DNA from: Escherichia coli
GTDB taxonomy: Bacteria; Pseudomonadota; Gammaproteobacteria; Enterobacterales; Enterobacteriaceae
Assembly: GCF_044647545.1 (NCBI RefSeq)
Contig: NZ_CP172818.1
DNA length: 64,000 nt
Strand: one strand, 5' to 3'
Shown here: positions 34,401-37,400 of the stretch, one piece after another
How the letters are laid out: each line of letters starts with the position of its first letter
Position numbering within the stretch: the first letter of the stretch is position 1
Made by a program: the position numbers

Positions 34401-37400
34401 GCAGTTTCTCCAGCATTGCCTGAACGGCATTCCCGGTGCTGTATGAATCGGTTACTGATATATTTTCCTGCATAGATTTAACCGGCCATCTGAGATGGCC
34501 GACAGGTTAACATAATTACAGCCATTTAGGGCCACGCGCTCAGCCCGCGGGTGAAAACGCATCTATCACCTTGTGATCGACACCTTCATTCTCCCCCGCC
34601 AGTTCGGCACTGAGCTTCGCCATAAACTCGACTAAAAATTGCGCGTTGTGCTGCGCCAGCTGCTTGCCTCTTGCGGTTTGCATGGTTTGCGGTAATTTCA
34701 GTAACTTTGTCTGGAAATGATCCAGCGCGTAGCGTTTATCATCAAGCGGGCGATGCTGTGCGAACGGATCTTCGCCATCAAACAGCGCCACGCCCAATGC
34801 CCCTGAAACGGCAAACACGCGCGCCAGGCCAATCGCCCCCAGGGCTTCCAGCCGATCCGCATCCTGGACGATTTTAGCTTCCGTTGTTAAGGGGGCGATT
34901 TGCGCGCTGAAACTGTGAGCGGCAATGGCATGACAAACGGCCTCAATTTTCTCCGCCGGAAATTGCACGAACTCTTCACGGAGCAGGCGACGCGTCTCTT
35001 CTGCCGCCAGGATTGAAGAACGCTGCCGTTGCGGATGATTTTTCGCCAGGCTCACAATATCGTGAAAATAACAGGCGGTTAAAATCACCAGCATATCGAC
35101 GTCATCATCTGCCGCCAGCTTCTGTGCCGTAGCCCAGACGCGGCGAAAATGACACACGTCATGGGCCGCGTCCTGGTGCTGATGATGGTTTTTCAACCAG
35201 TTTTCGAACTCTGCCTGCCAGTGTTGTAAGTCCATACGCGCTCCGTTGCCAAAGAGTCGCCACCTTAGCAGTTTTTATTCATAGCGTCTGCTACGTGCGG
35301 GACGAGGTCGGGTGTACCAGGCAATGCTGCCTAACAATGCCCCGACCAGAGCCATAAATAAAAATCCGACCAGTGCCCCTAACCACTTTCCCGCGGTAGA
35401 GCCTAAATCGCTTTCAAATCCCGACACGGGGGCATCGGGGATCCGGCTCATCACCCAGATGTAACGCGCCATTGCCCAGACGAAATAGCCACACCATGTA
35501 TAGAAAGCCCACAAAGCCAGTTTGCCACCAGGGCTGCGAGAGAGTCTCTCTTCCATCTTTGTCGAACCGTATTCCATTTTGAGATAACCCGGAAAATTCA
35601 GACTTAGTACTATTATGTGATAAAAATCACATTTTTCCACATTGAATGAGCCAGTCAAGACTCAATCATTTTTTGAACAAATAGATAATTTTTGCGCAAC
35701 GGCAGTGAATACAAGAAAAATCGTTTTGAGCGATTTTATTTATCTTTGATATCGGCTTTATTAATTCATTCAATCAATATATTAGCACTGATTACAATTA
35801 TACCTTTTTATTATTCTGTGTCATGATGCCTCCGTTATTAGCCTTTTATCGTCTTGTTTATATTTTTTGGGCCGGCATGATGCCGGCTTTTTTTTATGCC
35901 TTCATTAATGTGCGCGTGATCACACCAGCCGTTTAGCGCAACGATCATTGATACTCCCTATCTTTCAGTTCAACTCATAACTTATTGATATACATTTATA
36001 ATCTTCATGAATGTTTATATTCAGAATTCATAATCCTGAATTATATTAAATAGATTAGAAACATTTTGAAATCTTTTAAATACATTTGTTACATGTAATC
36101 CTTAAAATAAAATGAACTTCATAGAATAGTATCCAAATGTGCTTTTTTTTGGATAACGGCACTTATTGATATATTCATGAAGATTATAATCACAAGGGAA
36201 TACATAATGAAAAGAAAAGTTCTGGCAATGCTGGTCCCGGCGTTATTAGTTGCTGGCGCAGCAAATGCGGCTGAAATTTATAATAAAGATGGCAATAAAG
36301 TTGATTTCTACGGCAAGATGGTTGGCGAACGCATCTGGTCAAATACTGATGATAATAACAGCGAAAACGAAGATACCTCCTATGCTCGTTTCGGTGTTAA
36401 AGGTGAAACCCAAATCACCAGCGAACTGACTGGTTTTGGTCAGTTTGAATACAACCTCGACGCCAGCAAGCCCGAAGGTGAAAACCAGGAAAAAACCCGT
36501 TTAACCTTCGCCGGTTTGAAATATAACGAGTTAGGATCATTTGACTATGGCCGTAACTACGGTGTTGCTTATGATGCCGCAGCTTATACCGATATGTTAG
36601 TTGAATGGGGTGGCGATTCCTGGGCTTCCGCTGACAACTTCATGAATGGTCGTACCAACGGTGTTGCAACCTACCGTAACTATGATTTCTTTGGCCTGGT
36701 TGATGGTCTTGATTTTGCGATTCAGTACCAAGGCAAAAACAGCAACCGTAGCACTAAGAAACAAAATGGTGACGGCTATGCGTTGTCTGTAGACTATAAC
36801 ATCAATGGTTTTGGTATCGTTGGTGCATATAGCAAATCTGATCGCACCAACGATCAAGTTGCCGATGGAAACGGTTCAAATGCTGAACTGTGGTCATTGG
36901 CTGCAAAGTATGACGCGAACAATGTCTACGCAGCTGTAATGTACGGCGAAACTCGTAATATGACTCCGGGTTCTATTGATACAGGTGTTGCCGATCGAGA
37001 AGGCAATACAATAATGCGTGATCAACTTATCAATGAAACCCAGAACTTTGAAGCGGTTGTTCAGTATCAATTCGACTTTGGTCTGCGTCCGTCCTTAGGT
37101 TATGTGTACTCTAAAGGTAAAGATATCAAAGGGGTACCTGGACATAGATATGTTGACGCTGACCGTGTGAACTACATTGAAGTTGGTACCTGGTACTACT
37201 TTAATAAGAACATGAACGTTTATACTGCATACAAATTCAACATGCTGGATAAAGATGACGCCGCCATTACTGGCGCAGCAGCTGATGACCAGTTTGCAGT
37301 TGGTATCGTCTACCAGTTCTAATCAGCCAACTCGCTGCGGCGTGTTACTGTAAAACTTAACACTAGCCTGAGTTCGTCCCTCATCGAACTCAGGCTTTTT

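What the first reader, a model, noticed from the sequence alone, without database searches (positions are those of the whole stretch)
35760..35900. Orphan plus-strand terminator in the yedR/yedS divergent region marks a likely small RNA
A strong intrinsic terminator (7-bp GC stem plus eight U) sits at 35871..35895 with no ORF feeding into it and a -10-like TACAAT about 95 nt upstream. It works as a terminator only on the plus strand. This fits my recollection that the sRNA RseX is encoded between yedR and yedS, but I cannot reproduce its sequence from memory.
Basis: partly seen in the sequence, partly recalled or inferred. Interest (0 to 1): 0.3.

Follow-up and report, generated by a model that had tools for sequence, protein, structure and literature searches.

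The report
Known E. coli small RNA gene rseX

Summary
The observation and the interpretation both hold. A strong plus-strand intrinsic terminator sits at 35871..35895: a 7-bp stem (6 G-C and 1 A-U), a UGA loop and eight T. Under strict criteria it is one of only two such sites in the 64-kb window. The other is the terminator of DsrA, and shuffled sequence gives none.

Rfam RF01401 (rseX) matches 35805..35894 (+) over its full length, at 99 bits against a gathering score of 50. The annotated K-12 gene rseX (b4603) aligns to 35805..35895 with 90 of 91 bases identical. The one difference, C35830 (T in K-12), lies in a hairpin loop. The gene order drpB(yedR) <- rseX -> yedS is the same as in K-12.

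TACAAT (35793..35798) ends 6 nt before the annotated 5' end. The -35 is poor and the region is AT-rich (GC 0.24-0.38), which fits the published H-NS silencing.

Homologues in E. albertii, E. whittamii, other Escherichia lineages and Citrobacter amalonaticus keep the same gene order. They conserve the RNA body, especially UUAGCCUUUUAUCGUC, far better than the upstream flank. That core is complementary to the ompA and ompC ribosome-binding sites.

Published work shows Hfq-dependent repression of ompA, ompC, fimB and ihfB, and repression of fepA that depends on the terminator loop. Verdict: already known, low interest.

The parts
35805..35895 (+). rseX small RNA gene (91 nt)
   Evidence: Full-length Rfam RF01401 hit at 99 bits. 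90/91 identical to the annotated K-12 rseX b4603.
35793..35798 (+). -10 hexamer TACAAT of the rseX promoter
   Evidence: Read from the sequence. It ends 6 nt before the annotated 5' end at 35805. Other Escherichia lineages carry TACAAT, TAAAAT, TACCAT, TTCAAT or TACGAT. No good -35 is present (at most 3 of 6), and the consensus scan does not call a plus-strand promoter here. The sigma-70 promoter and the 5'-RACE end are reported in PMC8313858, citing Chen 2002 and Douchin 2006.
35818..35842 (+). Weak 5' hairpin of the Rfam model (RNA nt 14-38); the loop holds the only difference from K-12 (C35830)
   Evidence: Rfam structure line and MFE fold. The loop is hypervariable among homologues. The stem shows no compensatory change and two one-sided breaks.
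35834..35855 (+). Conserved single-stranded core (RNA nt 30-51, GUUAUUAGCCUUUUAUCGUCUU): the target-pairing region
   Evidence: Almost invariant across 9 homologues. Best local duplexes: nt 37-51 with ompA -23..-7 (-17.5 kcal/mol) and nt 30-44 with ompC -15..+1 (-16.6 kcal/mol). Pairing is stronger than shuffled RseX, z -2.3 and -2.4.
35871..35887 (+). Terminator stem-loop (7 bp, loop UGA)
   Evidence: Invariant within Escherichia, with one compensatory G-C to A-U change in Citrobacter. In K-12 the loop of this terminator is required for fepA repression (PMC11979758).
35888..35895 (+). Run of eight T (the U tail: termination signal and, by established knowledge of Hfq-dependent sRNAs, an Hfq-binding 3' end)
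   Evidence: Homologues carry 7-8 T.
35275..35577 (-). drpB (yedR), the divergent upstream neighbour
   Evidence: ORF list, K-12 and RefSeq annotation, and the same gene order in 6 other lineages.
36207..37322 (+). yedS-type porin gene, the downstream neighbour (intact here, a pseudogene in K-12)
   Evidence: ORF. RefSeq annotates 'porin' in a genome identical to the window over the 1.1 kb searched. Pseudogene in K-12.

Best explanation
Window 35805..35895 (+) is the gene for RseX, a 91-nt Hfq-dependent trans-acting small RNA.

The promoter has a poor -35 and lies in an AT-rich island. In K-12 this region is silenced by H-NS (with StpA), so the RNA is normally almost absent.

When it is made, its single-stranded conserved core (nt 30-51, UUAGCCUUUUAUCGUC) pairs with the Shine-Dalgarno and start-codon regions of ompA and ompC mRNAs. 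This blocks translation and lowers porin levels, which relieves envelope stress. Other parts of the RNA repress fimB and ihfB. [quoted passage not shown]

Shown here: the gene's identity, its position, its conservation pattern and its complementarity to targets. Taken from published K-12 experiments and inferred to apply to this 90/91-identical allele: expression, Hfq dependence and regulation.
For: - Rfam RF01401 matches over its full length at 99 bits against a gathering score of 50.
- The K-12 annotation places rseX b4603 between drpB and yedS, and the two sequences are 90/91 identical.
- The terminator is unique under strict criteria, apart from that of DsrA, with 0 such sites in 40 shuffles.
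- The 91-nt sequence is present in 4879 of 5426 complete E. coli genomes.
- Homologues with Rfam scores of 71-95 bits occur in E. albertii, E. whittamii, two unnamed Escherichia species, two other E. coli lineages and Citrobacter amalonaticus. A porin gene lies downstream in all seven, and drpB lies upstream in the six whose stored DNA reaches that far.
- The RNA body is far better conserved than the upstream flank.
- The conserved core is complementary to the ompA and ompC ribosome-binding sites, z -2.3 and -2.4 against shuffles.
- The AT-rich island has GC 0.24-0.38.
- Literature: 91-nt RseX, the sigma-70 promoter, H-NS repression and the ompA/ompC/fimB/ihfB targets (PMC8313858); fepA control through the terminator loop (PMC11979758); the locus map (PMC7648144).
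Against: - No expression data exist for this strain. In wild-type K-12 the RNA is undetectable, so physiological activity here is inferred.
- The plus-strand promoter has a poor -35 and is not called by the consensus scan.
- The whole-RNA fold is no more stable than shuffles (z -1.13).
- The 5' hairpin has no covariation support.
- Target pairing was computed against K-12 ompA and ompC sequences, not those of the genome the window comes from.
Confidence: 0.95

Rival explanations
1. The sequence is rseX by descent but is a silent relic in this strain. On this reading it is never transcribed at useful levels, and the terminator merely insulates yedS from stray upstream transcription.
For: RseX is undetectable in wild-type K-12 in every growth phase tested and appears only without H-NS (PMC8313858). 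The -35 is poor and no plus-strand promoter is called. The gene is missing from about 10% of complete E. coli genomes and is listed as a variable sRNA lost in several lineages (PMC3318445).
Against: The RNA body is much better conserved than its flanks, from E. coli to Citrobacter, which implies purifying selection on the transcript. The core is complementary to the ompA and ompC ribosome-binding sites. TraDIS data in S. Typhimurium were read as evidence of native RseX activity (PMC3632133).
Confidence: 0.12
2. The region encodes a small protein: the 37-aa ORF at 35823..35936, starting at the AUGAUG inside the RNA.
For: An ATG-started ORF exists mechanically.
Against: No Shine-Dalgarno sequence precedes it (UUAUUCUGUGUC AUG). 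It would have to be read through the terminator. In 4 of 9 homologues a 1-nt indel introduces a stop inside the terminator, and Citrobacter lacks the ATG.
Confidence: 0.01
3. The promoter and terminator form a leader or attenuator that controls the downstream porin gene yedS in cis.
For: rseX and yedS lie in tandem on the same strand, and this arrangement is kept in all 7 related lineages.
Against: There are 311 nt between the U tail and the yedS ATG, with separate promoter-like sites at 36020..36047 and 36086..36113. The terminator is strong, and no alternative anti-terminator pairing was seen in the fold. RseX acts in trans from plasmids. RseX pairing with the yedS ribosome-binding site is no better than shuffled RseX (z -0.26).
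Confidence: 0.03

Closest known systems
RseX of E. coli K-12 (b4603; Rfam RF01401)
   Same: Same locus and strand between drpB(yedR) and yedS, same 91-nt length, 90/91 identical, and the same -10 element and terminator.
   Different: One base differs: C35830 here against T in K-12 (RNA nt 26, in the loop of the 5' hairpin). The exact allele seen here occurs in 240 of 5426 complete E. coli genomes. The downstream yedS is intact here and a pseudogene in K-12.
MicF/ompC and MicC/ompN (porin-regulating sRNAs encoded next to a porin gene; from my own knowledge of the field, with micF next to ompC visible)
   Same: A small Hfq-dependent RNA encoded beside a porin gene that represses major outer-membrane protein mRNAs by pairing at the ribosome-binding site.
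   Different: RseX lies in tandem with its neighbouring porin rather than divergent from it. It shows no significant pairing with that neighbour. It is H-NS-silenced rather than driven by OmpR or sigma-E.
SdsR and ArrS (sRNAs whose terminator loops control fepA)
   Same: [quoted passage not shown] The RseX 3' module (nt 52-91) in the window is identical to K-12.
   Different: They are different genes with unrelated sequences. [quoted passage not shown]

Membership tests
rseX (Rfam RF01401; E. coli b4603) | Sequence and structure match to the family covariance model above the curated gathering score | tested here: met
   99 bits against a gathering score of 50, model positions 1-94 of 94, E 1.9e-12.
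rseX (Rfam RF01401; E. coli b4603) | Near-identity to the annotated, experimentally mapped K-12 gene | tested here: met
   90/91 identical to NC_000913.3 2033649..2033739.
rseX (Rfam RF01401; E. coli b4603) | Genomic position: plus strand between divergent drpB(yedR) and yedS | tested here: met
   drpB at 35275..35577 (-) and the yedS porin at 36207..37322 (+). Same order in other Escherichia lineages and in Citrobacter.
rseX (Rfam RF01401; E. coli b4603) | Own sigma-70 promoter giving a primary transcript | tested here: inconclusive
   The -10 TACAAT is correctly spaced from the annotated 5' end. The -35 matches at most 3 of 6, and the scan calls no plus-strand promoter. 5' RACE evidence exists for K-12 only.
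rseX (Rfam RF01401; E. coli b4603) | Rho-independent terminator with a U tail at the 3' end | tested here: met
   7-bp stem and 8 T. Unique under strict criteria apart from DsrA's terminator.
rseX (Rfam RF01401; E. coli b4603) | Complementarity to the translation initiation regions of ompA and ompC | tested here: met
   Duplexes of -17.5 and -16.6 kcal/mol cover the Shine-Dalgarno and start-codon regions. In the shuffle test only 4 of 120 (ompA) and 3 of 120 (ompC) shuffled RseX sequences paired as well. K-12 target sequences were used.
rseX (Rfam RF01401; E. coli b4603) | A ~91-nt transcript is actually produced, binds Hfq and lowers OmpA and OmpC | not testable with these tools
   Known only from K-12 experiments (PMC8313858; PMC11979758).

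The most novel reading that the evidence does not exclude
A near-consensus sigma-70 promoter on the opposite strand (ATGACA, 16-nt spacer, TATAAT; 35824..35797, 11 of 12 matches) overlaps the rseX promoter and the RNA's 5' end. Its -35 is the reverse complement of the invariant UGUCAU block of RseX. Its -10 overlaps the rseX -10 by 2 bp.

If it is active, the two promoters would fire back to back with start sites about 15 bp apart. Competition for RNA polymerase, or a long drpB-directed transcript, could then contribute to the near-silence of rseX. Part of the 'sRNA' conservation would in that case really be promoter conservation.
Probability: 0.1. Interest if true: 0.3.

Novelty: already known. 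Interest (0 to 1): 0.07.

Why it matters
The finding adds little. It is a correct rediscovery of an annotated and experimentally studied sRNA gene.

Two practical points follow. First, none of the RefSeq E. coli records listed in the searches annotates a feature under rseX, so a sequence-only reader can still spot real genes that routine annotation omits. Second, the allele here keeps both functional modules, the ompA/ompC pairing core and the terminator loop implicated in fepA control, identical to K-12. Published RseX biology should therefore transfer to this strain.

Tried and rejected
1. Unrestricted RNAduplex of RseX against 200-nt target regions gave long, loop-ridden duplexes no better than shuffles (z -0.04 to -1.4). 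I judged this uninformative and replaced it with a local-window scan.
2. Pairing of RseX with the neighbouring yedS ribosome-binding site is not better than chance (z -0.26), so I dropped the idea that RseX regulates its neighbour.
3. The 37-aa ORF through the terminator is not conserved and was rejected as a coding gene.
4. I looked for covariation support for the 5' hairpin and found none: no compensatory change and two one-sided breaks in 9 sequences. Conservation there looks like primary-sequence conservation.
5. A literature search for an antisense or bidirectional promoter at rseX returned only unrelated eukaryotic papers, because the term threshold I set let papers without 'rseX' through.
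6. One of the eight genome contigs pattern hits (L006, a Granulosicoccaceae MAG) had no Rfam match and is a chance match.
7. One alignment call failed on out-of-range coordinates and was repeated.
8. The original Douchin et al. 2006 paper was not found in the searchable library. It is cited only through later papers.

Full report
**Observation.** The sequence at 35869..35895 reads GGGCCGGCAUGAUGCCGGCUUUUUUUU.
- G35871-C35887 forms a perfect 7-bp stem (six G-C pairs and one A-U) around a UGA loop. Two G-U pairs can extend it. Eight T follow at 35888..35895.
- The consensus scan reports it as a plus-strand terminator-like site, and the hairpin alone folds at -14.6 kcal/mol.
- The loose scan finds 7 terminator-like sites in 3 kb against 3.0 expected, so I applied strict criteria to the whole window on both strands: a perfect 7-bp stem with at least 6 G/C, a loop of 3-8, and at least 7 T in the next 8 bases.
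- Only two sites pass: this one and 27379..27407 (-), the terminator of DsrA. Forty dinucleotide-preserving shuffles gave none.
- On the minus strand the hairpin is followed by an A-rich run, so it terminates on the plus strand only.
- TACAAT lies at 35793..35798.
- The flanking genes are drpB (formerly yedR, minus strand, 35275..35577) and a yedS-type porin (plus strand, 36207..37322).

The only caveat is that two small mechanical ORFs touch the region.

**Identity.**
- A gathering-threshold Rfam scan of the whole window gives a full-length match of RF01401 'rseX Hfq binding RNA' at 35805..35894 (+): 99 bits against a gathering score of 50, E 1.9e-12.
- The K-12 MG1655 record annotates ncRNA rseX (b4603) at 2033649..2033739 (+), between drpB and the yedS pseudogene.
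- Aligned, that 91-nt gene corresponds to window 35805..35895 with 90 of 91 bases identical. The difference is C35830 against T in K-12. It falls at RNA nt 26, in the loop of the weak 5' hairpin.
- The TACAAT hexamer ends 6 nt before the annotated 5' end.
- No spacing gives a -35 better than 3 of 6, and the scan calls no plus-strand promoter.
- The intergenic region is an AT-rich island, GC 0.24-0.38 against about 0.5 in the flanking genes.

**Distribution and conservation.**
- The 91-nt sequence occurs in 4879 of 5426 complete E. coli genomes, nearly always once and on the chromosome. The exact allele of the window occurs in 240.
- None of the RefSeq records listed in the searches shows an annotated feature under rseX.
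- A pattern scan of one genome per GTDB species, using the seed plus the terminator, returned eight loci.
- Seven of them are true rseX by Rfam, at 71-95 bits: two further E. coli lineages, E. albertii, E. whittamii, two unnamed Escherichia species and Citrobacter amalonaticus. The eighth is a chance match.
- All seven have a porin gene downstream. The six whose stored DNA reaches far enough have drpB upstream.
- In the alignment the blocks CUGUGUCAU and UAUUAGCCUUUUAUCGUC are invariant, and the terminator stem is nearly so. The upstream flank and the hairpin loop vary freely.
- The 5' hairpin shows no compensatory change and two one-sided breaks. The terminator shows one compensatory G-C to A-U change, in Citrobacter. 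Conservation of the 5' half therefore looks like conservation of primary sequence.
- The 37-aa ORF that starts at the AUGAUG and runs through the terminator is interrupted by a stop in four homologues and lacks its ATG in Citrobacter. It is not a gene.

**Mechanism.** Published K-12 work establishes the following.
- RseX is a 91-nt primary transcript with a sigma-70 promoter and a Rho-independent terminator.
- It was isolated as a multicopy suppressor of rseP essentiality.
- It represses ompA and ompC in an Hfq-dependent way.
- It is undetectable in the wild type and appears when H-NS is removed, with the increase larger still in an hns/stpA double mutant.
- It also binds and represses fimB and ihfB (all of the above from PMC8313858).
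The terminator-loop nucleotides are required, Hfq and RNase E are needed, and no direct pairing could be shown (PMC11979758).

I tested whether this allele keeps the pairing capacity.
- In a local-window duplex scan, nt 37-51 pair with ompA -23..-7 (-17.5 kcal/mol) and nt 30-44 pair with ompC -15..+1 (-16.6 kcal/mol). Both duplexes cover the Shine-Dalgarno region.
- Only 4 of 120 and 3 of 120 shuffled RseX sequences pair as well (z -2.3 and -2.4).
- These nucleotides coincide with the invariant core and are unchanged in the window.
- Nt 52-91, including the terminator loop, are identical to K-12.
- The neighbouring yedS ribosome-binding site shows no pairing above chance (z -0.26).

Expression, Hfq binding and regulation in this strain are inferred from K-12. 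They were not shown here.

**Rivals.**
- *Silent relic.* The gene may be a silent relic in this strain. That cannot be excluded without expression data, but selective conservation of the RNA body argues against it.
- *cis-leader for yedS.* This is unlikely given the 311-nt gap, the separate promoter-like sites and the RNA's action in trans in published work.
- *Small protein.* Rejected.

**Residual oddity.** A minus-strand promoter-like site matches 11 of 12 consensus positions (ATGACA, 16-nt spacer, TATAAT; 35824..35797).
- It overlaps the rseX -10 and the first 20 nt of the RNA.
- Its -35 is the complement of the invariant UGUCAU, and its -10 is kept in Escherichia (ATTATA, or ATTATC in E. 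albertii) but not in Citrobacter.
- A plasmid carrying only 75 bp upstream of drpB's old GTG start rescued without inducer (PMC7648144). This suggests, as an inference, that drpB has a closer promoter, so this site is not needed to explain drpB expression.
- I could not test whether it fires.

**Verdict.** The feature is the already known rseX gene, and its interest is low.

Noticed in passing
window 35797..35824 (- strand): A near-consensus sigma-70 promoter-like site on the minus strand (ATGACA, 16-nt spacer, TATAAT; 11 of 12 matches, the best in the 3-kb scan). It overlaps the rseX -10 by 2 bp and covers the first 20 nt of the RNA. Its -35 is the complement of the invariant UGUCAU block. 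It is conserved in Escherichia but not in Citrobacter.
   Followed up: partly
window 36207..37322 (+); L005, L007-L012: The yedS-type porin is intact here, whereas it is a pseudogene in K-12. It is strikingly divergent between lineages (53-64% amino-acid identity), while the adjacent DrpB is 93-97% identical within Escherichia. The porin looks like a hypervariable or replaced allele beside a conserved sRNA.
   Followed up: partly
window 27383..27469 (-): The DsrA small RNA gene (Rfam RF00014, 102.5 bits, full length). Its terminator (27379..27407) is the only other site in the window that passes the strict terminator criteria.
   Followed up: partly
window 44731..44820 (-), 45812..45887 (+), 58532..58607 (-), 60356..60431 (+), 62771..62846 (+): One tRNA-Ser (CGA) and four tRNA-Asn (GTT) genes whose Rfam-aligned 73-nt cores are identical. 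The arrangement appears to match the K-12 serU/asnT/asnW/asnU/asnV region (gene names from memory).
   Followed up: partly
RefSeq E. coli records matching window 35805..35895: All 30 records listed for the 91-nt match show 'none' as the annotated feature under it, although Rfam has the family and K-12 annotates the gene. This looks like a systematic annotation gap.
   Followed up: partly
E. coli genome search: Two of the 4882 rseX matches lie on plasmids rather than chromosomes. I did not look at which plasmids, or whether they are misassigned chromosomal pieces.
   Followed up: no
window 37365..37396 (+): A strong 12-pair terminator-like hairpin followed by TTTTTATT, about 40 nt after the yedS stop codon. 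It is presumably the yedS terminator.
   Followed up: no
window 35818..35842 (+); alignment A2: The 5' hairpin in the Rfam rseX model has no covariation support in 9 homologues: the loop is hypervariable and the stem has two uncompensated changes. The modelled structure may be weaker than the family model implies.
   Followed up: yes
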